DNA of 64,000 nt, taken from assembly GCA_041441465.1 (NCBI GenBank), contig JASDSY010000010.1, positions 105,883 to 169,882 on the forward strand. The letters run 5' to 3'. The number at the start of each line of letters is the position of its first letter. The stretch's first letter is position 1. The notes under the pieces are model-generated. The model was not told where the DNA came from and made no database searches. It was given only the letters and a program-made list of their open reading frames with translations. Shown here in pieces: positions 10,003-31,199 of the stretch. The DNA is from Candidatus Wallbacteria bacterium. Lineage in GTDB: Bacteria; Muiribacteriota; UBA9980. A program made the position numbers and the translations under genes.

Positions 10003-11418
10003 CTATTTCTTATTTTCTATAATGCCGTATGCCGCTTTTATAATATCATTGAGCCTGTCCGGAAATACTTTATATAGTTTTTTAGGCTCGTCGCATTTGA
10101 CATAATTAGCTTTATCGAAATCCCGCGGAATAATGAACATCGCTTCGTCTGTGCCGCCTGAAAACGTGCCAAGCCTTATTTCCATTGTCGCAGGAGAAAA
10201 TTTAGAGAGCAATTCGGCATTAGTGGTGTCGCGGTCTATAGACTGCAGCATGCAATTAGCTATAAGCTGAGTCAAATTTTCAACTTTCGCCTTATCTATT
10301 ACCGCCTCTAAAGTCGAATCGCCGACACGAGTTATTTTCCAGTCGCTATTCGTCTTTTTTACCTCGACCGATACGGTGCCGGCCGGAATAAGTCTGACGC
10401 TGTTAACTTCCGAAGCCGCAAAATCATTAGTCAACTTAGGCATAAAATCCATGGCCGATTTTTTTAATTCGGCCTTAAAATCCCTGTCAAGCATAAGGAT
10501 TTCTTTTTTATAATTGGATTTAACCGCTATGAGGTTTTCAGACGTGCTGTCACGGCCGACATTAATTACCGTCATTACCTCGGCGGTTGCGCCGGTACTG
10601 AGTTTTAATATTATTTCAGCCGATGTTTCGCTTACCAGATTATTTTTATACGAAGCATCGGTCTCGTCTATAATTTTTTTTGCGGAAGCGGCCTGTATTT
10701 TATTAATGATCTCGTTAATCATCTTAGTATCGCAGCGGCCGTTCTCCGGCGATTCCATGCTCCATATCCCGGCTTTATTCGTAAAAGAATATTTTTCTTC
10801 GGCCGTCGTGCCGGGATATGAAATTTCAAAATGCTTTATGTTTGCCGGAATAAAAGAAGCGATTTTTTTATCGCGGAATTCAAAAAGGTTTTTATTCGCG
10901 TCATTGTAAAGCCCCGACTCAACCAGAAATATATCTTTGCTTTCAGGAAATTTCACGTAGCATAATTCGCCGGACGGATTTTTGTTTCCATAACAAAAAG
11001 TAATTTCGGCGCTTTCAGCCTTCAAAGTAACCTTTATCTCATTGGTCCCAAAGCCGAAATCCGCCATGTTAGATATCTGATCGGCCGTAATTTTAGAATC
11101 GATTCTGGCGAGCTTGATTTTATTCGTCATTTCATTGACAGCGCTCTGATCTAAAAGCGCATCAAGCGGTTTTTCAAGCATCCATTCTTTCTTTTCGTTT
11201 TTCTTTGAAAAAACAATTTCAGTCAAAGCGCCGCCGGATTTTGTATAATCAGGCTTCTGGATTTTCAGATGAGTCAGTCCTTCAAAGTTAAAGTTAGCCG
11301 CCAATTGTGCTTTCTTGCTTTCCTCGGTTTCAACCGGCGCCTGCCTGAGATTATTCGCGTAGAACCCGAGCGCGATAAGAACAATAAGAGCGACAATAGT
11401 TTTTATATATTGATTCAT
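10003..11418 (-). CDS. DUF4340-like protein (GldG-associated)
   Basis: 471 aa; N-terminal membrane anchor IVALIVLIALGFYA; last gene of the ABC/GldG operon, the usual position for this family. Confidence 0.5.
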   Translation of the reverse strand: MNQYIKTIVALIVLIALGFYANNLRQAPVETEESKKAQLAANFNFEGLTHLKIQKPDYTKSGGALTEIVFSKKNEKKEWMLEKPLDALLDQSAVNEMTNKIKLARIDSKITADQISNMADFGFGTNEIKVTLKAESAEITFCYGNKNPSGELCYVKFPESKDIFLVESGLYNDANKNLFEFRDKKIASFIPANIKHFEISYPGTTAEEKYSFTNKAGIWSMESPENGRCDTKMINEIINKIQAASAKKIIDETDASYKNNLVSETSAEIILKLSTGATAEVMTVINVGRDSTSENLIAVKSNYKKEILMLDRDFKAELKKSAMDFMPKLTNDFAASEVNSVRLIPAGTVSVEVKKTNSDWKITRVGDSTLEAVIDKAKVENLTQLIANCMLQSIDRDTTNAELLSKFSPATMEIRLGTFSGGTDEAMFIIPRDFDKANYVKCDEPKKLYKVFPDRLNDIIKAAYGIIENKK

Positions 11419-11440
11419 AAAGTATCACTCCCGTAAAAAT

Positions 11441-13090
11441 TTATGACCTGTAATACCACACGGTAAATCCTGTCAATATAACGATACCAGGCACCAAGAG
11501 TATAACTATAAACCATACGTTATTGGCCGCTTTCTGATTGAAATCGAGCGTAAACGGCACCGGCGCCTTAGGCGTAACCGCTATGAGATCTTCGATATCG
11601 GCCAGGTAACTGAACATATTCAGCGCAAGATTAAAATTTCCCTGTAATCCTATAAATTCGTTACGCATAAAATTCGAAGTGCCGGCCGCAATAATGCGCA
11701 TTTCTTTTTGTTTGGAACGACGGCCGTTAGCGTCGGATACGATCGCGTTTTCACCGGTGCCTGAATGTATTTCAGCGTTAGCGACAGTTTTTGAAACCGC
11801 TGTTACGACAGTTATCGGCCCTTTTATATCGCGGTCAGAATCAAATTTCACGTTTTTATCGGTCAGATAAGTCGTATCAGCAAACGAGTCAGGGCTGGTC
11901 TGAACAAGCGCAGCCGCAGTCATGCCCGGCGGCATATTTTTAACGGAATTCACGGCCCTGGCAAGCGGATAAAAAGTAGCCATATTAAAACCTTTTACCA
12001 CAGGATGGTCACTGTTATAAATCATTCCGAGCGGCATGGTATAATCGCCGAGTCCGAGCATCTTCAATGCCGGTTTCATATCTATTATAATGTTTTTACC
12101 GGGCTCGATTCCGTATTTTGAAAGCAGCCTTTCCATGCTGGCCGAAGGCGCCTGCGGCGGGAAATTCACGTCAACTAAAAAGAGCGCATGACCGCCGTTA
12201 TCAAGATATTTAGAGATCATCGCTTCCTCAGTTTCCATAAGCTCAATCTGCGGTCCTGCAATTACGAGCGCGCTGCAATTGCCCGGCACTTCCTGGCGCT
12301 GAAGCAGGTTGAGTTTTTGCAGCTCGAAATTCTTGTTAGCCAATTCCTGCTTCATAAGGCTCATGCCGCGTTTATCATCCGAATTAATGTCGGCTTCGTT
12401 ATGCCCCTCAAGAAAATATATGACGTTTTTTTCCTTCGAAGTAGCCCTTATTATAGCGTTAGTCAATTCCTGCTCGCCGAAAAAATTCTCGAGTTTTTCC
12501 GTTTTGCCTTCATATTTAACGACAGTGATGCCGTCGCGAGTTATGTTAAATTCCTTGGCGAGAAGCGGTTTTTTGTTCATATCCACAAATTCATACTTGA
12601 ACTTCGGGTTGTTATATGAATACTGCTTCATAAGATCGGAAAAATGCCTTCTGACTTCAGGAATATCACGATAGAAAAGATAAACGTTGATATCGCTTTT
12701 AAGCCTCGCTATCGCCTTGACCGACTGCTCGGCCAGCGAATATCTTTTATTCGACGTCATATCCCACTGCTTCGTATCGCGCCCCGCAATAAAATTAAGA
12801 AGCACGACTATAGCTATTATAATAGCGCCATAAATCAACGCGTTAGTCGAATATTTAAATGAACGTGTCCTCATTTTATTAGCGATATAATTGAAATTAT
12901 AAATCGTGATACCGAGCGCCATGATAAGGCCGGCTGCAGCCAGGGCCGCCGGAACCGTTGTCGATTCAGCCATAAAATATCCGAAGAAACCTGAAAAAAT
13001 AAGCAGCGCGGTTAATATTTTCAAAGTTGCCATTAATTTAGTGTTGTTATCGCCGTTAGAGTTTTTTATTTCACGAATATCGTTATTCAT
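11441..13090 (-). CDS. GldG-like ABC transporter auxiliary component
   Basis: 549 aa; N- and C-terminal TM segments (C-terminal VWFIVILLVPGIVILTGF); sits between an ABC-2 permease and the DUF4340-like gene. Confidence 0.55.
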   Translation of the reverse strand: MNNDIREIKNSNGDNNTKLMATLKILTALLIFSGFFGYFMAESTTVPAALAAAGLIMALGITIYNFNYIANKMRTRSFKYSTNALIYGAIIIAIVVLLNFIAGRDTKQWDMTSNKRYSLAEQSVKAIARLKSDINVYLFYRDIPEVRRHFSDLMKQYSYNNPKFKYEFVDMNKKPLLAKEFNITRDGITVVKYEGKTEKLENFFGEQELTNAIIRATSKEKNVIYFLEGHNEADINSDDKRGMSLMKQELANKNFELQKLNLLQRQEVPGNCSALVIAGPQIELMETEEAMISKYLDNGGHALFLVDVNFPPQAPSASMERLLSKYGIEPGKNIIIDMKPALKMLGLGDYTMPLGMIYNSDHPVVKGFNMATFYPLARAVNSVKNMPPGMTAAALVQTSPDSFADTTYLTDKNVKFDSDRDIKGPITVVTAVSKTVANAEIHSGTGENAIVSDANGRRSKQKEMRIIAAGTSNFMRNEFIGLQGNFNLALNMFSYLADIEDLIAVTPKAPVPFTLDFNQKAANNVWFIVILLVPGIVILTGFTVWYYRS

Positions 13091-13093
13091 TTA

Positions 13094-13879
13094 TTACAGC
13101 CTCCATTTCGTCGATTCTAATGAAAGTGAGGTTAAGAAAAGCCCTATAAAGGTAAAACTTAAATAATACATCATATCTTTCGAGTCAATTACGCCTTTCG
13201 CGAATGTCTCAAAATGTTCCATAATCGAAATCGACTTTAAAAATTCGCCAAGAACGCCTTCTGCGCTATACGATGCCCAGCCTATCACCCAGAATAAAAG
13301 CAGTACGCCGAAGCCAAGGACTGCCGAAACCACCTGATTTTTGCTTAATGTAGAGGTGAAATTTCCGACTGCGGCAAAAGCCATACCTATAAGAAACAAT
13401 CCGAAGTATGACGTAAATAGCGGCCCTGTTTCGACATTTCCATATACGTATAAAATCGCCGGATAGGTAAAGGTAAGAGCCAGCATCAACGCAAAAACGC
13501 CGACCGACGCGAAAAATTTTCCAAGCACGATAGAAATATGAGAAACCGGAGAAGTGAGCAAAAGCTCGATAGTTCCGGTCTTAAACTCTTCCGAATATAA
13601 CCGCATTGTAAGAAGCGGCATTATAAGAAGTATGACGACGCTGGCGTTATATACAAGCGGCCTCAAAACGGCGTCGGCGATATTGATTTTCGATAATTGC
13701 TCCATCGCCTGCGGATTGCCGGATGTCTTCATGTAATTGACGTAATTTGCGAATGAAACAATGCCCATATAGAAAAAATAACCTGTCAGTATCAAATATA
13801 CGGCTATTATCATATAAGCGATTGGCGAAGTGAAAAAAAGCGACATTTCTTTTTTAAAAATCGACCATGTATTACGCAT
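13094..13879 (-). CDS. ABC-2 family permease (GldF-like)
   Basis: 261 aa polytopic membrane protein; overlaps the ATPase gene by 8 nt. Confidence 0.6.
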   Translation of the reverse strand: MRNTWSIFKKEMSLFFTSPIAYMIIAVYLILTGYFFYMGIVSFANYVNYMKTSGNPQAMEQLSKINIADAVLRPLVYNASVVILLIMPLLTMRLYSEEFKTGTIELLLTSPVSHISIVLGKFFASVGVFALMLALTFTYPAILYVYGNVETGPLFTSYFGLFLIGMAFAAVGNFTSTLSKNQVVSAVLGFGVLLLFWVIGWASYSAEGVLGEFLKSISIMEHFETFAKGVIDSKDMMYYLSFTFIGLFLTSLSLESTKWRL

Positions 13880-14831
13880 TTACCGATTCCTCCTTGGTTA
13901 TAAGCTTAAGGAAAATATCCTCGAGGGAAGTTTCCTGCGTGCGGAGCTCGTGTATGTTAAGCTTTATTTCCAAGAGCCTTGCTGCCGCAAGCGGAGCGAT
14001 TTCAAAATTAGCGGAAGTTTCAATCAATATTTTTCTGGCGTTTTTATGAATCTCATCGTTTATTATATTAACGGATTTTATTCCGGTGATAGGTTCGAGC
14101 GAAGTTTTGATTTGTTCACCTGTCGCCTCACCCGTTATCGTTATTTCCATACGTTCATCTTTCGAAACGGCTTTCGTAAGGTTTGCGGTAGCGTCTTCGG
14201 CAATTATCCGGCCGTGATTTATTATGACGACACGCGAGCATGTTATAGACACCTCAGGCAGAATATGTGTCGAAAGTATAACGGTATGGGCGTCCTTTAA
14301 ATTTTTAATAAGCGTCCTGACCTCGTTTATCTGGAGCGGATCGAGGCCTACCGTCGGTTCGTCAAGTATCAGAAGTTTTGGATTATGAACCAGCGCCTGC
14401 GCCAGTCCAACCCTTTGCTGATACCCTTTCGAAAGATGCCCTATCAACTTGCCGGCCACATTAGAAATATTTGTTTTTTCCATGGCAAGTTCAACAGCCT
14501 TATTAATTTCACGAACAGGAATGCCCTTAATTTCTCCGACGAATTTCAGGTACGAACGCACGCTCATCTCCGGATAGACCGGCGGTTTTTCCGGTAGATA
14601 ACCTATAAGGCGTTTGGCATTTATGGCGTCATCGTAAATATCGTGGCCGTCAACTTTGACAGTGCCGGCCGTCGCCGAAAGAAAACCGGTAATAATGCGC
14701 ATCGTAGTAGTTTTACCGGCGGCATTCGGCCCAAGAAAACCCATGATTTCACCCTGTTTGACATTAAACGTAACATTCGAAATCGCAGTGAAATCGCCAT
14801 AGTTTTTCGTAAGATTTTGAACTTCGATCAA
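13872..14831 (-). CDS. ABC transporter ATP-binding protein (GldA-like)
   Basis: 319 aa; Walker A GPNAAGKTT, ABC signature LSKGYQQR, Walker B LLILDEPTVGLD. Confidence 0.8.
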   Translation of the reverse strand: MIEVQNLTKNYGDFTAISNVTFNVKQGEIMGFLGPNAAGKTTTMRIITGFLSATAGTVKVDGHDIYDDAINAKRLIGYLPEKPPVYPEMSVRSYLKFVGEIKGIPVREINKAVELAMEKTNISNVAGKLIGHLSKGYQQRVGLAQALVHNPKLLILDEPTVGLDPLQINEVRTLIKNLKDAHTVILSTHILPEVSITCSRVVIINHGRIIAEDATANLTKAVSKDERMEITITGEATGEQIKTSLEPITGIKSVNIINDEIHKNARKILIETSANFEIAPLAAARLLEIKLNIHELRTQETSLEDIFLKLITKEESVNA

Positions 14832-15188
14832 TTGCGGTTCCTCCCCGTTATTAAAATTAAAAATTAAATGTAAAAATCCGGACTTTTTTCAGCCCGGCTG
14901 ACCTTATAACATACCCAGGATTAACCAAGCGCATTAAGTAACTCAATTTTCAAACTTAGTCGCACCTGAATATTTTTTTAATTGAAACTTTAACAAATAT
15001 AAGACCTTAAAGAGCCAATAAGTTTATAAAAAGATTTTGCATGGAATAATTTTATATCATAATTTTTTTTTGTTGTCAAATATTTCATTGTTAAATTTAT
15101 AGTCTTGAATATTTTCCTTTTATTTGATAGAATAGACATTTTATAACTTAACGGCAATATGACTTTATAAGGAAAATTTGCAGAAATT

Positions 15189-17588
15189 ATGCGCAATTTT
15201 ATTAACGAACTTCTAAGAATAATAGAATCGAACAAGTTAAATGTTAACTCAGAAGAGCTGTCAACCCAGCTCAAGCTTGTTATAAGCGAATACAACAAAA
15301 GCATTGAGTACTTAAAATTCTATGAAAGTATTATCCATTCACAAACGGAGATGATCTGCCGTTATCTGCCGGACCTCACACTTACGTTCGTAAATGACGC
15401 TTACTGTCACGCTCGCTGCCAGAAACGCGAGCAGCTTTTGGGCAAGAAAATAACGGACTTTATAGATGAAGACTGCCGCGAAAAATTTATCGAATATGTC
15501 GAGCATTTCGGGAAATTCAGAATTTCTAATTCCATAGAGCAAAAAATAACATTAGATAACGGCGTTACTAAATGGGAACTCTGGGGAGACAACGCGGTAT
15601 TTGACGAATATGGGCGCATAGTGGAATTTCAGGCCGTCGGGCGCGACATAACCGAGCAGAAAAACACTGAAATCGAACTTGAAAAATCCAGGGCCCGCCT
15701 CAACTCAATCTTTAACAACAATTTTTTATCGATAATACTCATTAACAAAGATTTAAAAATTTGTGAATTCAACAGAATCGCTGAAGAAAGAATTAAAAGG
15801 TTATACGGCCTTTCGATAAAAATGGAAAGCAATTTTTACGATTATGTGCCGGCCGAGCTTGTAAATTTTTATGATGAAGTTTTAAAAAACGTATTTAAAG
15901 GCGATAATGTCATATTTGAAATGCATATAAACGATACCGCCGGAAATAAAACATACTGGTTTACCAATAACATTCCAATCCATAATGCCGACGGCACGAT
16001 ATTCGGAGCATGCCTGACATCCATCGAAACCACTAAATTTAAAGAATTCGAAAGCCAGTATAAATTATTCGAAGAAAACGTTAAACAAATGTTGAGTAAC
16101 TCCAACCAGGCTTTTATTGTCGTCGGGTTAGACAATAAAATAAAAGTGTTCAACGAATCGGCAAACGACATATCGCTCAAGGTAATCGGCCGGTCGCTTC
16201 AAACCGAAACGCTGCTTATCGAGCTCATACCGGAAAAAAAGATAAAAATAATAACCGAAATGCTGTTAAACGTTAAAGACGGCAAATTTAAAAGCGCCGA
16301 AGCCGAATTCAAAGACTTGTCCGGCCAAAAATATTGGTGGAACTTTAATTTTTCGCCTATCTTCGATTCGGAAGGTAAAATAAACAGCATCTTTATTTCA
16401 ATAATAGACATAACTGAAAAAAAAATGCTTGAGCAGGAGCTTGTCAAATTAAACTCCGAGCTTGAACTAAGGGTTACAGAACGCACCGCCGAACTTGAAA
16501 ATGCCAATAAAAAGCTGCGCGCCGAAATCATGCTCCGCGAAAAAGCCGAAAAAGAAGTTGTAGCCGTTAAGAATGAACTAATTAAAAAATATTCATTTTA
16601 TGACCTTGTAGGAAAAAGCCCGCAAATGCAAGGCATAATGGATATGCTTAACGTAATATCTGAAAATGACTGCAACATTTTAATTGAAGGGCCGTCCGGC
16701 ACCGGAAAGAGCCTTATCGCTAAAATAATTCATAATTTATACGACCCGGATAATAAAAAACCTTTTATAGTTTTAAACTGCGGAGCTTTTCCTGAAACGC
16801 TCCTCGAATCAGAATTATTCGGCTATGTCAAAGGCGCATTCACAGGCGCTAATCGTGATAAAGCCGGAAAATTCGAGGCCGCTAACGGCGGTACAATATT
16901 TTTGGATGAAATAGCCGAAATGCCGATTCAGCTTCAGGTAAAATTATTACGCGTTATCGAAGATAAATGCTTCGAACCGCTCGGATCGAACGTTACCTGC
17001 CGCGTAAACGCCAAAATAATAGCAGCCACCAATAAAGACATTCCGGAACTTATAAAACAGAATAAATTCCGGCTCGACTTATATTACCGGCTGAAAGTGG
17101 CAAATATAAAAATACCTTCGTTATCTGAAAGACGCGAAGATATTGATCTTTTAATCGATTACTTTATCGTAAAATTTAACGATAAATATAAAAAAAATAT
17201 AAAGGGCCTTTCAAAAGAAGTATATGAGTTTTTTATGATATATGATTTTCCCGGCAATATCAGGGAACTTGAAAATATTTTCAACGCGTCCTTTATATTT
17301 TGTAACGGCGATTACATTAACTCCAGACACATTCCAGCGGAATACAGGCAAATTATCGATGAAAAAATGCTCGAAGATAAAAATTATCATGCAGGCGGCA
17401 TTGAAACTATATCAGTCGACGAATCGCCTTTCAATTACGAAAATATCACTACAATTGACCTTAGCGAAAAACAATGCATTTTAGAAACCCTGAAACAATT
17501 TAACTTCAACCGCACGCTCGCAGCGCAGCGACTAAAAATCGACCGAACAACATTATGGCGAAAAATGAAAAAATATAATCTTCTATAA
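15189..17588 (+). CDS. sigma54-dependent transcriptional activator with N-terminal PAS-type sensor region, no receiver domain
   Basis: 799 aa; AAA+ Walker A GPSGTGKS, GAFTGA motif (YVKGAFTGANRDK), C-terminal Fis-type HTH (AAQRLKIDRTTLWRKM). Confidence 0.8.
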   Translation: MRNFINELLRIIESNKLNVNSEELSTQLKLVISEYNKSIEYLKFYESIIHSQTEMICRYLPDLTLTFVNDAYCHARCQKREQLLGKKITDFIDEDCREKFIEYVEHFGKFRISNSIEQKITLDNGVTKWELWGDNAVFDEYGRIVEFQAVGRDITEQKNTEIELEKSRARLNSIFNNNFLSIILINKDLKICEFNRIAEERIKRLYGLSIKMESNFYDYVPAELVNFYDEVLKNVFKGDNVIFEMHINDTAGNKTYWFTNNIPIHNADGTIFGACLTSIETTKFKEFESQYKLFEENVKQMLSNSNQAFIVVGLDNKIKVFNESANDISLKVIGRSLQTETLLIELIPEKKIKIITEMLLNVKDGKFKSAEAEFKDLSGQKYWWNFNFSPIFDSEGKINSIFISIIDITEKKMLEQELVKLNSELELRVTERTAELENANKKLRAEIMLREKAEKEVVAVKNELIKKYSFYDLVGKSPQMQGIMDMLNVISENDCNILIEGPSGTGKSLIAKIIHNLYDPDNKKPFIVLNCGAFPETLLESELFGYVKGAFTGANRDKAGKFEAANGGTIFLDEIAEMPIQLQVKLLRVIEDKCFEPLGSNVTCRVNAKIIAATNKDIPELIKQNKFRLDLYYRLKVANIKIPSLSERREDIDLLIDYFIVKFNDKYKKNIKGLSKEVYEFFMIYDFPGNIRELENIFNASFIFCNGDYINSRHIPAEYRQIIDEKMLEDKNYHAGGIETISVDESPFNYENITTIDLSEKQCILETLKQFNFNRTLAAQRLKIDRTTLWRKMKKYNLL

Positions 17589-17632
17589 TTTATTTAGTTT
17601 TAAGAATTTCAGGCATAAACTAAATACATTTC

Positions 17633-17663
17633 ATGTTGCAATATGTTGCATTTTAAATGTTGC
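17633..17663 (+). promoter_or_regulatory. three direct repeats of ATGTTGC, candidate activator binding site
   Basis: atgttgc at 17633, 17643 and 17657, lying 60-90 nt upstream of a sigma54-like element. Confidence 0.3.
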
Positions 17664-17724
17664 TTTTAAAAAAAAGCGACATTTTTTTTATTTTAAAAGC
17701 ATATTTTATAACCCTTTTTAAACA

Positions 17725-17740
17725 TGGCACAAAAATTGTC
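17725..17740 (+). promoter_or_regulatory. sigma54-like -24/-12 element TGGCAC-N5-TTGTC (non-canonical -12)
   Basis: tggcacaaaaattgtc; -24 GG present, -12 reads GT instead of GC; about 40 nt upstream of the proposed cheA start. Confidence 0.25.
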
Positions 17741-17779
17741 CTTATATTTCTTACGAAAAGAAAAGGTCTGGTGATAAAT

Positions 17780-20020
17780 ATGGTAAAAAATTTAAGCAAT
17801 AACACCAATGAAAAAAAAGTTCCAAGAAAAATAAAAATAAGTTCAGCTGACCAGGCTGCTGCCATGCTTATTAACGCAGACGCTCCAGACTATATCGGCG
17901 TCAGTGAGGTAGCCGACTACATTCAAAATGTTATAGCTGAATATAATCCTTCAGGCGAAATAGGAGCGCTTGTATTTAATATATTTACAGAAGCTCTCAA
18001 TAAATTAAAAGAAGCCATAAAATTAAAAGATGAATCTCCCATAAATACAAAAGCAATAGAAGAATTACTCGGGGCTGCCGGCAGGCTTTTCGAAGCCGGA
18101 AAATCATATTATGAGTCAGACTCGCCTAAATTAAAAAGCGAAATTAAAACACCAGACAGTAAACCAAACCTTGACACTGAAAATAATGCCGGTATGACTA
18201 TGAATTTATCTAATAATCCCATAAGCTCACAAAATTCCGACACCAATCCCGCCGCGCAAAATAATGTTGCAAATTCGCAACCTTCCGTTAACTTAAACAA
18301 TGAATTACTGCCGGAATTTGTGAATGAAAGTCTTGAACATGTCGAAAAAGCTGAAGCCGCTCTTTTAACTCTCGAAAATTCGCCGGACGACCGCGACTCG
18401 ATCGATACCGTTTTCAGGGCATTTCATACGATAAAAGGGTCGGCTGCCTTTTTAGGCCTTGATTATATAGTAAAACTAGCGCATCAGGCCGAAAGCATGC
18501 TTTCAAAAATAAGGGAAGGCACACTGCAATATTCGGCATTTATATCAGACAGCGCACTTTCGGCTATCGACATGCTTTCTTTAATGATAAAAGGCGCGCA
18601 ATCAGGAAAATTATATAAGCCGGAAAACTTTGACGATCTGTTAAAAAAAATAGAATCTCCCGAATTAAATATAAATATTGCCAGCGGTAACAGCAATAGT
18701 AATAATGATATTGACAACAATATTAATAAAACAGAAAATAACGCGGCGGCTGCAATAACTCCAGCCGGCAATCCAGCCGAATCCCAAACCGGCCAGACAT
18801 CATCAACCAAAAATTCACAGCCTTCAATATCGGACGAAGAATCGATGCTGAGAATAAAAACGGATAGGGTTGACAAGTTAATAGACATGATAGGTGAATT
18901 GGTCATAGCGCATTCGATGGTAATGCAGGATAGTTTTGTTAAAACCGGCATAAATCATAATTTACAAAAAAAAGTAATGCGCACTTCTAAAATTATACGC
19001 GAGCTGCAGGATTTAAGCATGCTTATGCGCATGGTGCAATTCAAATCGCTGTTCCAGAAAATGGCGCGTTTAGTGCGCGACACTTCAAAAAAAACCGGCA
19101 AGGCTATTGAATTTATAACTTCGGGACATGAGACCGAAGTTGACCGCAACATCGTAGATACTTTAAATGACGCCCTGATTCATATGATCAGAAATTCCAT
19201 AGACCACGGCATCGAGCCTGCCGGGCAAAGGAGCGCTCAAAACAAACCTGCGCGCGGCGCAATTACGCTTTCTGCATTCCACGAAGGCGGTAACATAGTA
19301 TTAAAACTAAGCGATGACGGCCAGGGCTTGGACCGCGATAAAATATTAAATAAAGCGCTTGAAAAAGGAATAATAAAATCCGCACAGGGATTAAACGAAA
19401 ACGATGTTTTTAACTTAATATTTTTGCCGGGCTTTTCGACGAATGATAAGGTGACATCTCTTTCAGGACGCGGAGTCGGCATGGACGTAGTAAAAAAGGC
19501 CGTTGAAAAACTGCACGGCAAAATTGAGATATCATCAATAAAAAATAAAGGGACCACATTCACAATAAGGCTTCCGCTTACAATGGCAATAACGGACGGC
19601 ATGCTGATAAGAGTCGGAACTCAAAAGTTTATTATTCCGACGATCAATATAAAAATGACAATAAAGCCGCAAAAAGAACAAATTTCAATAATATCAGGCA
19701 GCGGCGAGCTTATAGCATTCAGGGGAAAAATGCTTCCGATATTCAGATTGAAAAAAGTATTTGAAATCAACGAGGGCGAAGACCTTATTGAAAACGGAAT
19801 AATTATAATACTAGAAGACAATCAAACTACATGCGCATTCTTTGTAGATGAGTTGCTGGGACAATACCAGGTTGTAGTCAAGCCTTTAGGCGCCGGCATC
19901 GGCAAGATCGACGGCATTTCAGGCGGGGCAATACTTGGCGACGGACGTGTCGGCCTCATAATCGAACCTTCTGAGTTAATAGAACAGGCAAAGCTTTTAG
20001 CCGTGCCGGTCGCAGCTTAA
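17780..20020 (+). CDS. cheA: chemotaxis histidine kinase CheA
   Basis: Hpt motif FRAFHTIKGSAAFLGL, HATPase region GRGVGMDVV, C-terminal CheW-like domain; ORF track starts at 17657 but that start would overlap the upstream repeat/promoter region, so the ATG at 17780 (MVKNL) is preferred. Confidence 0.8.
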   Translation: MVKNLSNNTNEKKVPRKIKISSADQAAAMLINADAPDYIGVSEVADYIQNVIAEYNPSGEIGALVFNIFTEALNKLKEAIKLKDESPINTKAIEELLGAAGRLFEAGKSYYESDSPKLKSEIKTPDSKPNLDTENNAGMTMNLSNNPISSQNSDTNPAAQNNVANSQPSVNLNNELLPEFVNESLEHVEKAEAALLTLENSPDDRDSIDTVFRAFHTIKGSAAFLGLDYIVKLAHQAESMLSKIREGTLQYSAFISDSALSAIDMLSLMIKGAQSGKLYKPENFDDLLKKIESPELNINIASGNSNSNNDIDNNINKTENNAAAAITPAGNPAESQTGQTSSTKNSQPSISDEESMLRIKTDRVDKLIDMIGELVIAHSMVMQDSFVKTGINHNLQKKVMRTSKIIRELQDLSMLMRMVQFKSLFQKMARLVRDTSKKTGKAIEFITSGHETEVDRNIVDTLNDALIHMIRNSIDHGIEPAGQRSAQNKPARGAITLSAFHEGGNIVLKLSDDGQGLDRDKILNKALEKGIIKSAQGLNENDVFNLIFLPGFSTNDKVTSLSGRGVGMDVVKKAVEKLHGKIEISSIKNKGTTFTIRLPLTMAITDGMLIRVGTQKFIIPTINIKMTIKPQKEQISIISGSGELIAFRGKMLPIFRLKKVFEINEGEDLIENGIIIILEDNQTTCAFFVDELLGQYQVVVKPLGAGIGKIDGISGGAILGDGRVGLIIEPSELIEQAKLLAVPVAA

Positions 20021-20024
20021 TATA

Positions 20025-20549
20025 ATGGCGGTGAGTATAATGACTATGGAAAACGCTCAAATTTATAACCATCCAACACAGGAAGCCGTTCAAATCAAAC
20101 CTGAACTGATTAAGCTGCTGACATTCATATTGAACGGAGAAGAATATGCGGTTGATATATTAAAAGTTCAGGAAATAATAGGCATCATTGAAATAACGCC
20201 GGTGCCTAAAACTAAGCCTTATATTAAAGGCGTTATAAATCTCAGGGGTTATATAATACCGGTAATAGACCTCAGAAAATTATTTGAGATGGCGGAAATA
20301 AAGTACACTGATTTAACCTGCATAGTAATAATTAAATCAGGCGGAATAACAATGGGGCTTATCGTCGATATGGTTTCTGACGTAATCGACGCCGGCACCG
20401 CTAATCTCCAAAAAACTCCCGATTTCGGCATTTCAGTTAAAACAGCATTCATTAATTCAATCGTAAAATCCGAACATAAGCCAAAATACTTAATAAATCT
20501 TGAAAAAATAATTGGAAGCGATGAAAATGCCGTAAATGGAAATACTTAA
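20025..20549 (+). CDS. cheW: chemotaxis coupling protein CheW
   Basis: 174 aa; CheW-like domain (FILNGEEYAVDILKVQEII...INLRGYIIPVIDLR). Confidence 0.8.
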   Translation: MAVSIMTMENAQIYNHPTQEAVQIKPELIKLLTFILNGEEYAVDILKVQEIIGIIEITPVPKTKPYIKGVINLRGYIIPVIDLRKLFEMAEIKYTDLTCIVIIKSGGITMGLIVDMVSDVIDAGTANLQKTPDFGISVKTAFINSIVKSEHKPKYLINLEKIIGSDENAVNGNT

Positions 20550-20620
20550 AATTTAAAATTAAATAACCAATACATGATAATAAAAATATAATAAAGTTAA
20601 CTATATAAGGGGGACTAAAC

Positions 20621-22525
20621 ATGAAAATTAAAATAAGCACAAAATTGATATCGAGCTTTATAGTGATCGCTCTAATAGCGGGATTAATAGGTATAATAAG
20701 CCGGAATAATCTTTTAGAAATCGATGGGAATTATACAAATCTCATCGAAAAATATATGCGCCCGCTTGTTAAAATCGAGAAAATCGACACCAACTTTCAG
20801 CATATAAGGGTATATTTAAGAGATTTGATAATGGAAACAAACAAGGACAAAATATCGAAAATCAAAGATAATATCACCGCATTAGACGAAGAAAATCAAA
20901 AACAGATAAAAGAAGTCGATCAAACTCTTTCTGATAATTCGAATATAAAAACAATAAATGAAATTTATGATTCATTTGTCAGCGAATACAATAGTTATAT
21001 GAGTGATGCAAATAAAATTAAAAATATTGTTAACGCCGGTCAGGAGAGCGAAGCGATAGCCATTTTAAACAGCAGCGCATTTATCGAAAAAGTAAATAAA
21101 GCTGACGAATATTTAAATAACTTGAACAAACTAGCTAACGCTGAAATTACCAGAATAGAAAATATAAACGAAGCGGAAGTTCATTCGACCCTCAGTACGA
21201 TCCTCTGGATCATCGTATCCGGAATAATTTTGGCGGTCATATTGGGGTTATTTATTTCAAGAGGCATCTCAAAAATAATATTGAATTTGAATAACGAAGT
21301 AAGGGCGATAATAAATTCGATTTTAGAAGGCAATCTTAAATTCAGGGGCGACTACCAAAAAATTAATTTTGAATTCCAGGACATAATAAAAGGCATTAAC
21401 GATATAATGGACGCTTATGATAAGCCTGTAAATGAAGCGCTCGCAACACTCGAAAAGATTTCAGAAAATGATTTAACGGTAAGAATGACAGGCAACTACA
21501 AAGGCGATTTCTTAAAAATTAAAGAATCGATCAATAAGGCTTTTGAAACGCTTGACAAGACGCTCCAAAATATACTCGCCAGCTCGGAACAGGTATCTGC
21601 ATCAGCGGTTCAAATCAGCGACGGCAGTCAGTCACTGGCAGCAGGCGCATCTGAGCAGGCAAGTTCTCTCGAAGAAATTTCAAGCAGCCTCCATGAAATG
21701 AACTCAATGGCTAAGCAAAATGCGGCAAATTCCAAAGAAGGCCAGAACCTTGCATTAATTACAAGAAAAAGCTCGGACCACGAAGTTGAAAGCATGAAAG
21801 AGCTTTCGAAAGCTATCGAAAAAATTAAAGAATCAGCCAGCAACACGGCGAAAATAACGAAAACGATAGAAGAAATAGCGTTCCAGACGAACCTTCTGGC
21901 CCTTAACGCGGCCGTAGAAGCGGCAAGAGCTGGAGACGCCGGCAAAGGATTCGCCGTTGTAGCCGAAGAAGTAAGGAATCTTGCAATGAGGAGCGCGGAA
22001 GCTGCTAAAAACACCGCGCAGCTTATAGAAGAATCGGTTAAAGACACTGTTTATGTAGTAAATATAAGCAATGACGCATTAAAAGGCCTGGCAGAAATCA
22101 GCTCGCATATAAATAAAGTCAACGAATTCATGTCCGAAATCGCCGCCGCATCTGAACAGCAGAGCCAGGGAATCGACCAGATCAACGCGGGCGTTTCTCA
22201 GTTAAATCAGGTTACGCAACAAAATGCAGCATTTTCTGAAGAATCAGCAGGATCGGCCGAAGAGTTGAATTCACTATCACGCGAAATGTTTTCAATGATA
22301 TTGAACTTCAAATTAACAGGAAGCGGCCAGATCAACTCAAAAAATTACGTAAACGCAATAGCCAGGCAAGATAAAAAAACAAGCGGAGTCAATGAAAAAA
22401 GACCGATAATAGACGCAGTACACAATATAAAAAAACTCGATAAATTTAAATCGAACACTATAAAAAAATCTCCTGAATCAATAATTCCATTTGATGATGA
22501 CAATGACATACTGAAGCAATTTTAA
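20621..22525 (+). CDS. methyl-accepting chemotaxis protein
   Basis: 634 aa; N-terminal TM, HAMP-like region, conserved signalling motif [34 protein letters not shown]; RBS aaggggg. Confidence 0.85.
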
Positions 22526-22561
22526 TTGTTTAAAGATATAATTCAAAGAAAGGAGGCTAGT

Positions 22562-23395
22562 ATGCCTTCGAAACTTTCCACAATTGAATTAAAAAATGCA
22601 GATTTTTTGAAGATAAGCGATCTGTTATATACATCATGCGGAATAGATCTGGACGACAATAAACAGGAACTTGTAAAATCAAGGCTTATAAAAAGGATCA
22701 GCGACCTTGAATTTAACAGCTTCGAACAGTATCTGGCCTTTATAAAACAGGATTATTCAAAAAAAGAATTGGCCTCTATGATCGATATGCTAACCACCAA
22801 TGTTACATATTTTTTCAGGGAACAAAGGCACTTTGATTTTATGGCCGCGTCGCTGAAAGCAAAAAAGGATACAAGAAAAGTAAGATTATGGAGCGCCGGG
22901 TGCTCATCCGGCGAAGAACCGTATTCAATCATAATGACTCTCAATGAAGAGTTGAGCAAATTTAACGAGTATGACATAAAAGTCCTGAGTACGGATATTT
23001 CGTCTAAAATGATAAATAAGGCACGTACCGGAATATACGACTCTATATCCTTGAAAGGCCTTAATAATTATATAATAGACAAGTATTTCATCAAGCAGGC
23101 TGAACTGCCTGAGTATAAAAACAACATAAAATACGACATAAAAAATAATATCAAGCGGCATATAAGTTTCGCGCGGCTGAATCTTATGGATGACTGGCCT
23201 ATGCACGGCCCTTTCGACTATATATTCTGCCGCAACGTCATGATATATTTTGATAAATTGACGCAGAATAAATTAATTAACAGATTTTATTCGCTTTTAG
23301 CAGACGGAGGTTATCTTTTTATAGGTCATTCAGAAAGCCTCTCCGCGTTAAAACATAATTTTAAATATATAGAACCAGCTATTTATTTAAAATAA
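22562..23395 (+). CDS. cheR: chemotaxis methyltransferase CheR
   Basis: SAM-binding region LWSAGCSSGEEPYSIIM; start set at the ATG 6 nt after aggagg (ORF track 22526). Confidence 0.8.
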   Translation: MPSKLSTIELKNADFLKISDLLYTSCGIDLDDNKQELVKSRLIKRISDLEFNSFEQYLAFIKQDYSKKELASMIDMLTTNVTYFFREQRHFDFMAASLKAKKDTRKVRLWSAGCSSGEEPYSIIMTLNEELSKFNEYDIKVLSTDISSKMINKARTGIYDSISLKGLNNYIIDKYFIKQAELPEYKNNIKYDIKNNIKRHISFARLNLMDDWPMHGPFDYIFCRNVMIYFDKLTQNKLINRFYSLLADGGYLFIGHSESLSALKHNFKYIEPAIYLK

Positions 23396-23418
23396 TTAAG
23401 TATATTGGAGGCGCCAGG

Positions 23419-24525
23419 ATGATTCGCGTTTTAATTGTTGATGATTCGGCGTTCGTAAGGAAAATCTTAAAAAATGAACTTTTAAAATATGACGACATCG
23501 AAGTGATCGGCGAGGCGGCCGACCCTTATGCCGCCCGTGAAATAATAGCGGAAAATAAACCGGACGTTATCACTCTTGACATTGAAATGCCAAGAATGGA
23601 CGGTATTACTTTTCTTGAAAAATTAATGAAATATTACCCGATTCCCGTTATAATAGTAAGCTCAGTTACCGCTCAAAACCGTGATTTAATACTAAAAGCG
23701 ATGAATTTGGGAGCAATCGAAGTAATAAATAAGGCAGGATCGCAATATTCTCTTCCAGATACTATAAGATTAATTAAAGCCATTAAAAACGCATCGTTGA
23801 TCAATATCGAAAAAATGAACTATACGGCTGAAATAAACCATGACTCAAATATAATCAAAGTAAAAAATACGGGTTTACAAGATAAAACCAATAATTATCA
23901 GGCTTCATTACAAAATGTTCCGGCGCTTCAGACGACGGATAAGTTAATAGCGATAGGCGCCTCAACTGGCGGGACGAAAGCGCTTGAAATAGTTCTTGCC
24001 GGCTTACCGGCCGACGTTCCGGCCGTCCTTATCGTCCAGCATATGCCTGAAGGATTTACCGAATCATTCGCCAAACGCCTCGACAGCATATGCAGCTTGC
24101 ATGTTAAAGAAGCAGCCGACGGCGATTATCTCGTTTCAGGTACGGCATTTATCGCACCGGGCAATAAACACATGGTACTTGCCAGAAGCGGCGCGCGATA
24201 TTATATAAAAATAAAGGACGGCCCTCATGTTCATCACCAAAAACCAAGCGTCGATGTGCTTTTTCATTCAGTATCCAGAAACGCCGGCCCGAACGCTGTA
24301 GGAGTCATATTAACCGGAATGGGCGCTGACGGCGCGTCTGGTATGCTTGAAATGCACGAATCAGGCTCCTATAATATAGCTCAGGACGAACAAAGTTCAG
24401 TCGTATTCGGAATGCCCAAAGAAGCCATAAAACTCGGCGCGGCCGATGAAGTCGCCGCTCTTGATAAAATCGCGGGTAAGATTGTCACGGCCGTCGAAAA
24501 GATAAAAAAACAGTCTGATAATTAA
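23419..24525 (+). CDS. cheB: chemotaxis methylesterase/response regulator CheB
   Basis: 368 aa; N-terminal receiver domain (VLIVDDSAFVRK...ITLDIEMPRMDG) and C-terminal methylesterase (IAIGASTGGTKALE). Confidence 0.85.
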   Translation: MIRVLIVDDSAFVRKILKNELLKYDDIEVIGEAADPYAAREIIAENKPDVITLDIEMPRMDGITFLEKLMKYYPIPVIIVSSVTAQNRDLILKAMNLGAIEVINKAGSQYSLPDTIRLIKAIKNASLINIEKMNYTAEINHDSNIIKVKNTGLQDKTNNYQASLQNVPALQTTDKLIAIGASTGGTKALEIVLAGLPADVPAVLIVQHMPEGFTESFAKRLDSICSLHVKEAADGDYLVSGTAFIAPGNKHMVLARSGARYYIKIKDGPHVHHQKPSVDVLFHSVSRNAGPNAVGVILTGMGADGASGMLEMHESGSYNIAQDEQSSVVFGMPKEAIKLGAADEVAALDKIAGKIVTAVEKIKKQSDN

Positions 24526-24620: not shown

Positions 24621-24657
24621 AACGGTAAGGCTAATTAAAGCTTTACCGTTTTTTTTA
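24621..24657. terminator. bidirectional intrinsic terminator between cheB and the convergent peptidase gene
   Basis: stem aacggtaagg / ctttaccgtt (one G-U) with loop ctaattaaag, A-run before and 8-T run after. Confidence 0.65.
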
Positions 24658-29916: not shown

Positions 29917-29958
29917 TTGCGGTATGTTATAAATACCGGCCTTATAATGGAGGAATTT

Positions 29959-31197: not shown

Positions 31198-31199
31198 AA

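What the first reader, a model, noticed from the sequence alone, without database searches (positions are those of the whole stretch)
15189..17782. PAS-type sigma54 activator upstream of the che operon, with direct repeats and a sigma54-like element in between
Seen: a receiver-less, PAS-containing sigma54 activator gene ends at 17588. Three ATGTTGC direct repeats lie at 17633-17663, and a TGGCAC-N5-TTGTC element at 17725-17740 lies about 40 nt before the ATG at 17780. Established knowledge: sigma54 promoters carry GG at -24 and usually GC at -12, with enhancer sites roughly 70-150 bp upstream. Inference: the chemotaxis operon may be under direct control of a ligand-sensing sigma54 activator. 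The -12 element is non-canonical (GT for GC), so this is tentative. The same layout argues that cheA starts at 17780, not at 17657 as in the ORF track.
Basis: partly seen in the sequence, partly recalled or inferred. Interest (0 to 1): 0.45.

Follow-up and report, generated by a model that had tools for sequence, protein, structure and literature searches.

The report
Sigma-54 promoter before a chemosensory operon
In an uncultured Wallbacteria genome, a sensor-type sigma-54 activator gene ends with its own terminator and is followed by a conserved sigma-54-type promoter in front of a chemosensory gene cluster, which is a plausible but ordinary regulatory arrangement.

Summary
The window comes from a Candidatus Wallbacteria MAG.

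- **Activator:** 15189-17588 encodes a receiver-less activator with three PAS domains, a sigma-54 AAA+ domain carrying GAFTGA, and an HTH_8 domain.
- **Operon:** cheA-cheW-mcp-cheR-cheB runs 17780-24525. It has no cheY.
- **Promoter:** TGGCAC-N5-TTGTC (17725-17740) is the only good sigma-54-like site in any intergenic region of the 64 kb. The 56 nt from this element to the cheA ATG show no change in one diverged strain type and two in another, although neutral divergence is about 20%.
- **The GT at -12:** this is no obstacle. The E. coli pspA promoter reads TGGCAC-N5-TTGT.
- **cheA start:** 17780 is correct. Relatives carry a stop at codon 4 of the longer ORF.
- **New point:** the third ATGTTGC repeat is the 5' arm of a 13-bp hairpin followed by a T-run. 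This is an intrinsic terminator for the activator gene and is kept in the relatives. The enhancer role of the repeats is therefore uncertain; only the GTTGC cores are conserved.

rpoN could not be checked. The pairing of this activator with a che operon appears only in this species-level group. Sigma-54 control of che operons and PAS-type one-component activators are both already known. I rate this a new member of a known kind, of low to moderate interest.

The parts
15189..17588 (+). Gene for a one-component bacterial enhancer-binding protein: PAS x3, a coiled-coil linker, a sigma-54 AAA+ domain with GAFTGA, and an HTH_8 DNA-binding domain. It has no receiver domain.
   Evidence: Pfam. The translation shows GPSGTGKS and GAFTGA. 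The AAA+ part matches solved ZraR, NtrC1, FleQ and PspF structures at E 1e-50 to 1e-73. No NCBIfam equivalog reaches its cut-off.
17633..17663 (+). Three direct ATGTTGC repeats with starts 10 and 14 nt apart, at -118 to -88 from the predicted transcription start. They are a candidate enhancer (UAS). Only the GTTGC cores are invariant among strains.
   Evidence: unique cluster, 0 of 200 shuffles; copy 1 reads ACGTTGC in the relatives, and the cores have 0 of 15 changes (P 0.04-0.1).
17655..17694 (+). Intrinsic-terminator-like element for the activator gene: a 13-bp hairpin (AAATGTTGCTTTT / AAAAGCGACATTT, 17655-17684) followed by TTTTTATTTT. Its 5' arm contains repeat 3.
   Evidence: scan; dG -13 kcal/mol, z -5.0. 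In L001 the hairpin is kept at -13.5 kcal/mol despite 3 substitutions, including A17679G, which turns a U-A pair into U.G; the same class of hairpin plus T-run marks other operon ends, but only 1.4% of coding control windows reach that energy.
17695..17724 (+). AT-rich spacer with T-tracts between the terminator and the promoter. It is largely invariant among strains. It may be bent DNA that helps looping, but this was not tested.
   Evidence: Sequence. There are 3 changes in 17685-17723 against about 8 expected at the neutral rate.
17725..17740 (+). Sigma-54-type promoter TGGCAC-N5-TTGTC, with GG at -25/-24 and GT at -13/-12. The predicted transcription start is near 17751.
   Evidence: unique site. 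(invariant in 3 haplotypes). (E. coli pspA has TGGCAC-N5-TTGT).
17770..17775 (+). Shine-Dalgarno-like GGTGAT, 4 nt before the ATG at 17780.
   Evidence: Sequence. Complementarity to the 3' end of 16S rRNA is from general knowledge. The motif is invariant in all haplotypes.
17780..20020 (+). cheA (746 aa): an N-terminal module of unknown function, an Hpt domain (FRAFHTIKGSAAF), then dimerisation, HATPase_c and CheW-like domains. It has no P2 and no receiver domain.
   Evidence: The start is fixed by the stop codons in relatives.
20025..20549 (+). cheW. Gene callers in the relatives start the protein 5 codons later, giving 169 aa.
20621..22525 (+). Methyl-accepting chemoreceptor (4HB_MCP sensor, HAMP, MCPsignal).
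22526..23395 (+). cheR methyltransferase.
23419..24525 (+). cheB methylesterase with a receiver domain. It is the last gene of the operon.
24621..24656 (.). Bidirectional terminator-like hairpin, flanked by an A-run and a T-run, between cheB and the convergent clostripain-like gene.

Best explanation
I read the locus as two separate transcription units.

**Unit 1.** The PAS-PAS-PAS activator gene (15189-17588) is probably read from a sigma-70-type promoter. A TTGAAT-17-TAGAAT match lies at 15105-15133. Transcription stops at an intrinsic terminator (17655-17694).

**Unit 2.** cheA-cheW-mcp-cheR-cheB (17780-24525) is read from a sigma-54 promoter (17725-17740), starting near 17751. It ends at a bidirectional terminator near 24621-24656.

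**Mechanism.** Sigma-54 holoenzyme forms a closed complex that cannot open by itself. The adjacent activator would bind upstream through its HTH_8 domain, probably somewhere in the -90 to -120 region that holds the GTTGC repeats. When its PAS domains receive an unknown, probably cytoplasmic, signal, it would assemble into an active AAA+ ring. The GAFTGA loops would then remodel sigma-54 using ATP. The cell would thus build this chemosensory array only under that condition.

**Shown:** the domains, the motifs, the terminator-like structure, conservation of the promoter-to-ATG stretch, and the cheA start.

**Inferred, with my estimates:**
- the promoter is functional and sigma-54-dependent, about 0.75;
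- this activator is the one that acts on it, about 0.6;
- the ATGTTGC/GTTGC repeats are its binding sites, about 0.35.
For: - **Uniqueness.** The exact -24 hexamer and spacing give the only TGGCACN5TTGY in 64 kb (0.18 expected window-wide). It is the only intergenic site with 2 or fewer mismatches. By my own scaling, the chance of such a match in this one 191-nt spacer on this strand is roughly 3e-4.
- **Conservation.** 17724-17779 has 0 of 56 changes against the L001 haplotype. Four-fold-degenerate sites of the activator gene differ by 0.198 (P 4e-6). The two changes in the L003/L007 type fall at -3 and -1. They leave -24/-12 intact but remove the final T of the overlapping sigma-70-like -10 (TATATT to TATATG).
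- **Precedent for GT at -12.** E. coli pspA reads TTGGCACGCAAATTGTA. Its sigma-54 and PspF dependence is described in PMC3709507.
- **Need for a separate promoter.** A terminator sits between the two genes, so the che operon needs its own promoter downstream of 17694.
- **Activator.** It is a complete enhancer-binding protein with GAFTGA and an HTH. It is the only one in the window, and its other neighbour (the divergent ABC operon) has no sigma-54-like site.
- **Repeats.** They lie at -118 to -88, within the usual enhancer distance, and form a cluster not seen in any shuffle.
- **Literature.** Sigma-54 control of che operons is reported or predicted in R. sphaeroides and Geobacter (PMC2577667) and in D. 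vulgaris, where PAS one-component activators are also common (PMC4641369).
Against: - rpoN was not found in the 64 kb or in about 10 kb beyond each end.
- The bases flanking the -24 hexamer (A before TGG, A after CAC) and the C to T at -12 depart from the consensus.
- Only three closely related haplotypes exist, so the footprint cannot separate the promoter from the 5' UTR and ribosome-binding site.
- No more distant orthologue keeps the arrangement. The nearest CheA homologues (41-45% identity: L004, L005, P0144) have no adjacent activator. The two whose DNA could be read (L004, L005) have no sigma-54-like site, and L004 has a good sigma-70 promoter. The nearest activator homologues (about 29% identity) are not next to che genes.
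- The repeats are direct, whereas HTH_8 dimers usually bind dyads. Copy 1 is not conserved as ATGTTGC, and copy 3 is explained by the terminator stem.
Confidence: 0.6

Rival explanations
1. The sigma-54 promoter is real, but another enhancer-binding protein encoded elsewhere activates it, for example a flagellar master regulator of the FleQ/FlrA type. The adjacent PAS activator would control other targets, and its position next to the che operon would be coincidental.
For: - Flagellar and chemotaxis regulons are often under dedicated sigma-54 activators.
- In D. vulgaris the sigma-54 promoters linked to chemotaxis had no assignable enhancer.
- The activator-che pairing is not conserved beyond this species-level group.
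- The repeats are not clearly a dyad binding site.
Against: - Enhancer-binding proteins very often regulate a neighbouring operon (general knowledge).
- This is the only sigma-54-like site near the gene, and the divergent neighbour has none.
- No flagellar genes lie nearby.
Confidence: 0.17
2. The TGGCAC-N5-TTGTC match is a chance similarity. The che operon would be read from a sigma-70-type promoter (for example TAAACA-18-TATATT at 17719-17748), or by read-through past a leaky terminator. The conserved 56 nt would reflect that promoter, the 5' UTR and the ribosome-binding site.
For: - A 9-of-12 sigma-70-like match overlaps the site.
- The -12 C is replaced by T.
- 16% of whole-window shuffles contain at least one TGGCACN5TTGY somewhere.
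- The closest distant relative, L004, has a clear sigma-70 promoter before cheA.
- rpoN is unverified.
Against: - 9-of-12 sigma-70-like matches are as common as chance in this AT-rich DNA (17 found against 11.4 +/- 3.7 expected).
- The L003/L007 haplotype changes the last T of that -10 while leaving -24/-12 untouched.
- The sigma-54-like site is the only intergenic one, in the right orientation, next to the only activator in the window.
- pspA shows that TTGT at -12 can function.
Confidence: 0.18
3. This is a Che3/CrdA-like arrangement. The activator would be the output of the cheY-less chemosensory cluster rather than its upstream regulator, as in Myxococcus xanthus, where the NtrC-like CrdA is the output of Che3.
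For: The gene content is the same as Che3: MCP, CheA, CheW, CheB and CheR, no CheY, with a sigma-54 activator gene alongside (PMC3147164). No cheY is present anywhere in the window.
Against: - CrdA has an N-terminal receiver domain and CheA3 has a C-terminal receiver.
- Here the activator has PAS domains instead of a receiver, and CheA has no receiver. No phosphotransfer route to the activator is visible.
- cheY may simply be encoded elsewhere in the genome.
Confidence: 0.04

Closest known systems
E. coli pspF - pspA (phage-shock) locus
   Same: - An activator without a receiver domain is encoded next to its sigma-54 target operon.
- The promoter core is identical: TGGCAC-N5-TTGT, with GT rather than GC at -12.
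- Upstream enhancer sites lie about 100 bp away (PMC3709507).
   Different: - PspF has no sensory domain and is controlled by PspA binding. Here three PAS domains and a coiled-coil linker precede the AAA+ domain.
- The genes are tandem with a terminator between them, not divergent.
- The target is a chemosensory operon.
Sigma-54-dependent chemosensory operons (R. sphaeroides cheOp, Martin et al. 2006, as cited in PMC2577667; predicted sigma-54 promoters before Geobacter che clusters; two chemotaxis operons in the D. vulgaris sigma-54 regulome)
   Same: A che cluster is preceded by a -24/-12 promoter with a short 5' UTR. In Geobacter the predicted starts lie 16-50 nt before the ATG, and here about 29 nt.
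   Different: In those cases no dedicated PAS one-component activator is encoded immediately upstream. In D. vulgaris the chemotaxis-linked promoters had no assigned enhancer. Here the host is an uncultured Wallbacteria lineage and no experiment exists.
One-component PAS/GAF enhancer-binding proteins (for example 6 PAS-type among 37 in D. vulgaris, PMC4641369; also NifA, NorR, FhlA and PrdR-type regulators)
   Same: The architecture is sensor domain(s), then a sigma-54 AAA+ domain, then HTH_8, with no phosphorylation input. The best NCBIfam similarities are to PrdR, RtcR, NifA and NorR, over the AAA+ and HTH parts only.
   Different: No equivalog cut-off is reached. The closest full-length relatives are only about 29% identical. 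The signal and the target differ or are unknown.
Myxococcus xanthus Che3-CrdA alternative-cellular-function chemosensory system
   Same: The cluster holds MCP, CheA, CheW, CheB and CheR without CheY, with a sigma-54 activator gene adjacent.
   Different: The activator here lacks the receiver domain that defines CrdA as a phosphorylation target, and CheA lacks the receiver fusion. The likely direction of control is activator to che operon, not the reverse.

Membership tests
Sigma-54 (-24/-12) promoter | A conserved -24 element with a GG doublet (TGGCAC) | tested here: met
   TGGCAC at 17725-17730, an exact match.
Sigma-54 (-24/-12) promoter | Fixed spacing, with the GG and GC doublets separated by 10 nt (TGGCAC-N5-TTGC) | tested here: met
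   N5 separates TGGCAC from TTGTC.
Sigma-54 (-24/-12) promoter | A -12 element TTGCW, with GC at -13/-12 | tested here: inconclusive
   The sequence is TTGTC: TTG is present and the C at -12 is replaced by T. The experimentally studied E. coli pspA promoter has the same TTGT, so the deviation is compatible with function.
Sigma-54 (-24/-12) promoter | The genome encodes sigma-54 (rpoN) | not testable with these tools
   There is no RpoN domain in any ORF of the window or in the called genes about 10 kb beyond each end. An intact GAFTGA activator implies sigma-54 only indirectly.
Sigma-54 (-24/-12) promoter | Intergenic position, oriented toward a gene and a short distance from it, with sequence conserved in relatives | tested here: met
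   The element ends 39 nt before the ATG at 17780. It is invariant in 3 haplotypes. 17724-17779 has 0 of 56 changes against the L001 type and 2 against the L003 type, against 0.198 neutral divergence.
Sigma-54 (-24/-12) promoter | Transcription start about 12 nt after the -12 element, dependent on an activator | not testable with these tools
   This needs 5'-end mapping or a reporter assay.
Bacterial enhancer-binding protein (NtrC-family AAA+ activator) | A sigma-54 interaction AAA+ domain with Walker A/B motifs and the GAFTGA loop | tested here: met
   PF00158, E 7e-65. GPSGTGKS, GAFTGA and FLDEI are present. E 1e-50 to 1e-73 against ZraR, NtrC1, FleQ and PspF structures.
Bacterial enhancer-binding protein (NtrC-family AAA+ activator) | A C-terminal Fis-type HTH DNA-binding domain | tested here: met
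   HTH_8 at residues 758-796, E 2e-13.
Bacterial enhancer-binding protein (NtrC-family AAA+ activator) | An N-terminal regulatory module (here claimed to be PAS, not a receiver) | tested here: met
   Three PAS-family matches and no Response_reg hit.
Enhancer (UAS) for the activator: the ATGTTGC repeats | Located about 80-150 bp upstream of the start | tested here: met
   -118 to -88 from the predicted start at 17751.
Enhancer (UAS) for the activator: the ATGTTGC repeats | Sequence conserved in relatives beyond the neutral expectation | tested here: inconclusive
   The GTTGC cores have 0 of 15 changes (P 0.037 at the neutral rate, 0.10 at the local rate). The whole 31-nt block has 4 changes, no fewer than expected. 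Copy 1 becomes ACGTTGC.
Enhancer (UAS) for the activator: the ATGTTGC repeats | Dyad symmetry suited to a dimeric HTH, or recurrence at other promoters of the regulon | tested here: inconclusive
   The repeats are direct. TGCAA-N4-TTGCA (17636-17650) is a 12-of-14 palindrome in the window but is weakened in the relatives. No other GTTGC cluster exists in the window. The rest of the genome was not available.
Rho-independent (intrinsic) terminator | A stable hairpin immediately followed by a U-run, downstream of a stop codon | tested here: met
   13 bp, dG -13 kcal/mol, z -5.0, followed by TTTTTATTTT, 67 nt after the stop. Comparable elements lie at other operon ends but in only 1.4% of coding controls.
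Rho-independent (intrinsic) terminator | The structure is kept in relatives despite substitutions | tested here: met
   L001 has 3 substitutions within the element, and the hairpin still has 13 bp at -13.5 kcal/mol.
Che3/CrdA-type chemosensory system with a sigma-54 activator as output | The activator carries a receiver domain that accepts phosphate | tested here: not met
   There is no Response_reg domain in the 799-aa protein. CrdA has one.
Che3/CrdA-type chemosensory system with a sigma-54 activator as output | The cluster lacks CheY | tested here: met
   There is no stand-alone receiver protein in the cluster or in the 64-kb window. The rest of the genome was not examined.

The most novel reading that the evidence does not exclude
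The cheY-less chemosensory cluster and the receiver-less triple-PAS activator form one functional module. The activator would switch the array on. The array, having no CheY and a CheA with an extra N-terminal module and no P2 domain, would feed back on the activator or on gene expression by a route other than receiver phosphorylation. That would be a Che3/CrdA-like gene-regulating chemosensory pathway with a new coupling mechanism in a candidate phylum.
Probability: 0.06. Interest if true: 0.55.

Novelty: new member of a known kind. Interest (0 to 1): 0.22.

Why it matters
If confirmed, this gives a first concrete regulatory prediction for an uncultured Wallbacteria lineage. The prediction is that a chemosensory array is made only when a cytoplasmic PAS sensor is triggered, through enhancer-dependent (sigma-54) transcription.

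It also has practical value for annotation:
- it fixes the cheA start at 17780;
- it defines two transcription units separated by a terminator;
- it shows that a TTGT -12 element should not be discarded in promoter scans.

It does not change what is known about sigma-54 or chemotaxis regulation.

Tried and rejected
1. **Comparative footprinting at depth.**
   - A genome-contig scan with CheA found nothing.
   - Protein searches show only one species-level group: activator 98% identical, CheA 92-100%.
   - The next relatives are 45-50% identical for CheA and about 29% for the activator, with different neighbours.
   - Only 3 haplotypes of the spacer could be compared.
2. **Finding rpoN.** It is not in the window, nor about 10 kb beyond either end via Logan contigs. 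No tool allowed retrieval of the rest of the MAG.
3. **The long cheA ORF from 17657.** Rejected. It is interrupted by TAA in the relatives, it would contain both the terminator and the promoter, and it has no ribosome-binding site.
4. **A known RNA element in the spacer.** There was no Rfam hit.
5. **The small hairpin between repeats 1 and 2.** It is no better than shuffled sequence (z -0.1).
6. **A sigma-54 site for the divergent ABC operon or elsewhere.** None was found.
7. **Assigning the activator to a named equivalog (PrdR, NifA, NorR and others).** All scores fall below the curated cut-offs.
8. **Assigning the CheA N-terminal module to Hpt or any solved structure by sequence.** No significant hit.
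9. **The Che3/CrdA reading.** It fails on the receiver domain.

Full report
**Origin and gene content**

The CheA encoded here is 100% identical to a protein that NCBI names 'MAG: chemotaxis protein CheA [Candidatus Wallbacteria bacterium]', on a 462-kb contig. The activator is MEZ7890887.1 from the same MAG. The window has 39.8% G+C, and the activator-cheA spacer has 23.6%.

Pfam scans of the ORFs of 100 aa or more that I took to be genes give the following around the finding:
- a divergent ABC transporter operon of the GldA/F/G type (10003-14831, minus strand);
- the activator gene (15189-17588);
- cheA, cheW, an MCP with a 4HB sensor, cheR and cheB (17780-24525);
- a convergent clostripain-like gene.

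The window has no rpoN, no cheY and no flagellar gene. The called genes about 10 kb beyond either end, seen through Logan contigs that carry the window's end proteins, have no rpoN either.

**Check of the observation**

The 799-aa protein has three PAS regions, a roughly 55-residue coiled-coil-like linker, a sigma-54 interaction AAA+ domain (E 7e-65), an AAA lid and a C-terminal HTH_8. It has no receiver domain. Walker A (GPSGTGKS) and the GAFTGA loop are intact. The AAA+ part matches solved ZraR, NtrC1, FleQ and PspF chains at E 1e-50 to 1e-73. No NCBIfam equivalog cut-off is reached, so it is a generic one-component enhancer-binding protein.

ATGTTGC occurs at 17633, 17643 and 17657. No other same-strand triple within 40 nt exists in the window, and none appeared in 200 shuffles.

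TGGCAC-AAAAA-TTGTC lies at 17725-17740. It is the only exact TGGCACN5TTGY in the window, against 0.18 expected. Among sites with 2 or fewer mismatches to TGGCACN5TTGCW it is the only intergenic one.

The third repeat is the 5' arm of a 13-bp hairpin, AAATGTTGCTTTT-AAAA-AAAAGCGACATTT (17655-17684). The hairpin is followed directly by TTTTTATTTT. Folded alone it has dG -13 kcal/mol and z -5.0, and no shuffle folds as well.

In the diverged haplotype L001 the element carries three substitutions, yet it still forms 13 pairs at -13.5 kcal/mol. One change, A17679G, converts a U-A pair to U.G.

A scan of all gene ends shows that hairpins of -12 kcal/mol or better followed by a T-run sit at operon ends in this window:
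- after 5015;
- after 10003 on the minus strand;
- after 17588;
- a bidirectional one at 24621-24656, after cheB;
- after 37750 and 50677 on the minus strand.

Only 1.4% of coding control windows reach -12.5 kcal/mol.

The activator gene is therefore most likely its own transcription unit. The che operon then needs a promoter between about 17694 and 17780, which is exactly where the sigma-54-like element lies. The 3' arm of the hairpin (GCGACAT) is an imperfect inverted fourth copy of the repeat. The 'repeat' pattern is therefore partly a by-product of the stem.

**Conservation**

Only one species-level group carries this locus. I recovered three haplotypes of the spacer:
- the window itself;
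- L001, L002, L008, L009 and L010;
- L003 and L007.

Four-fold-degenerate sites of the activator gene differ by 0.198 between the window and L001.

Against L001, the spacer has 18 substitutions and one indel, all upstream of 17720. The 56 nt from 17724 to the ATG have none (P 4e-6 at the neutral rate, 2e-4 at the local intergenic rate). L003/L007 add two changes, at 17748 and 17750. These are -3 and -1 relative to a start at 17751. They leave -24/-12 untouched.

The first of those changes removes the final T of the overlapping sigma-70-like -10 (TATATT). That argues against the sigma-70 alternative.

For the repeats:
- the GTTGC cores are unchanged (0 of 15; P 0.037 to 0.10);
- the 31-nt block as a whole has four changes, no fewer than expected;
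- copy 1 reads ACGTTGC in the relatives.

The footprint is therefore strong for the promoter-UTR-RBS block and only suggestive for the repeats.

**The -12 deviation**

I fetched the E. coli K-12 pspF-pspA spacer. Its sigma-54 promoter reads TTGGCACGCAAATTGTATT, which is TGGCAC-N5-TTGT, the same core as here. The dependence of pspA on sigma-54, PspF, upstream enhancer sites and IHF is described in PMC3709507. The deviation is thus compatible with a functional promoter. The bases flanking the -24 hexamer here (A on each side) are weaker than the consensus as I recall it.

**The cheA start**

In L001 and L003 the ORF that starts at the equivalent of 17657 reads MLL-stop (against for the window). 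NCBI and the Logan gene calls give 746 aa. One Logan call of 787 aa exists.

GGTGAT lies 4 nt before the ATG at 17780, and no such motif precedes 17657. The long ORF would also contain the terminator and the promoter. The start at 17780 is therefore supported.

**Is the coupling conserved or known?**

The closest non-identical CheA homologues (41-45% identity over 90% or more of the length) head cheA-cheW-mcp operons with no activator upstream. The two whose DNA could be read (L004 and L005) have no sigma-54-like site. L004 has a clear TTGATT-17-TGATAAAAT sigma-70 promoter. The closest activator homologues (about 29% identity) are not next to che genes. The pairing is thus lineage-specific.

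The principle is known:
- sigma-54-regulated chemosensory operons are reported for R. sphaeroides and predicted for several Geobacter che clusters, with starts 16-50 nt before the ATG (PMC2577667);
- the D. vulgaris sigma-54 regulome includes two chemotaxis operons;
- 15 of its 37 activators are one-component, and 6 of those have PAS domains (PMC4641369).

Wallbacteria are listed among the phyla that carry flagellin genes (PMC7018530), so real chemotaxis is plausible.

**Alternative reading: activator as output**

The gene set (MCP, CheA, CheW, CheB, CheR, no CheY, plus a sigma-54 activator) mirrors M. xanthus Che3/CrdA (PMC3147164). However, CrdA has a receiver domain and CheA3 carries a receiver fusion, and here neither protein has one. 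The defining feature fails, so I give this reading about 4%.

**Mechanism proposed**

An unknown signal at the PAS domains would release the AAA+ domain to form an active ring. The protein is bound upstream through HTH_8, most likely in the -90 to -120 region. It would contact the sigma-54 closed complex at 17725-17740 across an AT-rich, largely invariant spacer, and ATP hydrolysis would open the promoter. A transcript starting near 17751 would carry a 29-nt leader and the five che genes to the terminator at about 24650.

- **Shown:** the domains, the motifs, the terminator-like structures, the conservation pattern and the start codon.
- **Inferred:** sigma-54 dependence (about 0.75), the identity of the activator (about 0.6) and the repeats as its binding site (about 0.35).

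**Verdict**

The promoter and the start codon are supported. The enhancer assignment is uncertain, and the terminator is added to the picture. This is a new member of a known kind, of low to moderate interest (0.22).

Noticed in passing
window 17780-18300 (CheA N-terminus); also P0130, P0143, P0150 and other homologues: CheA carries a roughly 120-aa N-terminal helical module ahead of the Hpt domain. The module is conserved in distant homologues from several phyla, with a motif like LSLDDVAALLVQLEP..D. It has no significant Pfam or PDB sequence match. Two N/S/Q-rich linkers are the most variable parts between strains, and no P2 domain is recognisable. Some relatives have a second Hpt and a faint FimL_C hit.
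   Followed up: partly
window 17780-24525 and the whole window: The che cluster has no cheY, and no stand-alone receiver protein is encoded anywhere in the 64 kb. The output of this chemosensory system is therefore unknown from the window.
   Followed up: partly
window 24621-24656: A bidirectional terminator-like hairpin, flanked by an A-run and a T-run, lies between cheB and the convergent clostripain-like gene. It defines the end of the che operon.
   Followed up: yes
window 14878-14897 (minus strand): A GC-rich terminator-like hairpin plus T-run on the minus strand lies upstream of the first gene of the divergent GldA/F/G-like ABC operon (10003-14831), in its presumed leader. It could be an attenuator.
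   Followed up: no
window 17591-17626: An AU-rich hairpin right after the activator stop codon shows a paired double change between haplotypes (G17597A together with C17620T) that keeps base pairing. With so few haplotypes this may be chance.
   Followed up: partly
whole window: 16-mers within 2 mismatches of TGGCACN5TTGCW are fewer than in dinucleotide-preserving shuffles: 8 against 22.3 +/- 5, and every shuffle had at least 8. This may reflect avoidance of spurious sigma-54 sites or a composition effect.
   Followed up: no
window 28207-33152: A same-strand run of three genes: a protein with two phosphonate-binding-type periplasmic domains, a 426-aa protein with only sub-threshold Pfam matches, and a CHASE2 adenylate/guanylate cyclase. 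This may be a ligand-sensing cyclase module.
   Followed up: no
window 60109-63474 and L016 3804-8098: A 1121-aa PLD-nuclease/SNF2-helicase fusion is followed, just beyond the window, by an MmeI/Eco57I-type methyltransferase-endonuclease and a YhcG-like nuclease. The group looks like a restriction or defence island.
   Followed up: no
L014 1-6700 (about 10 kb before the window start): The upstream neighbourhood holds another MCP (Tll0287-like sensor), a T2SSE/PilB-type ATPase, and a receiver-SpoIIE phosphatase with STAS and anti-sigma kinase genes. The lineage therefore has further chemoreceptors outside the cluster.
   Followed up: no
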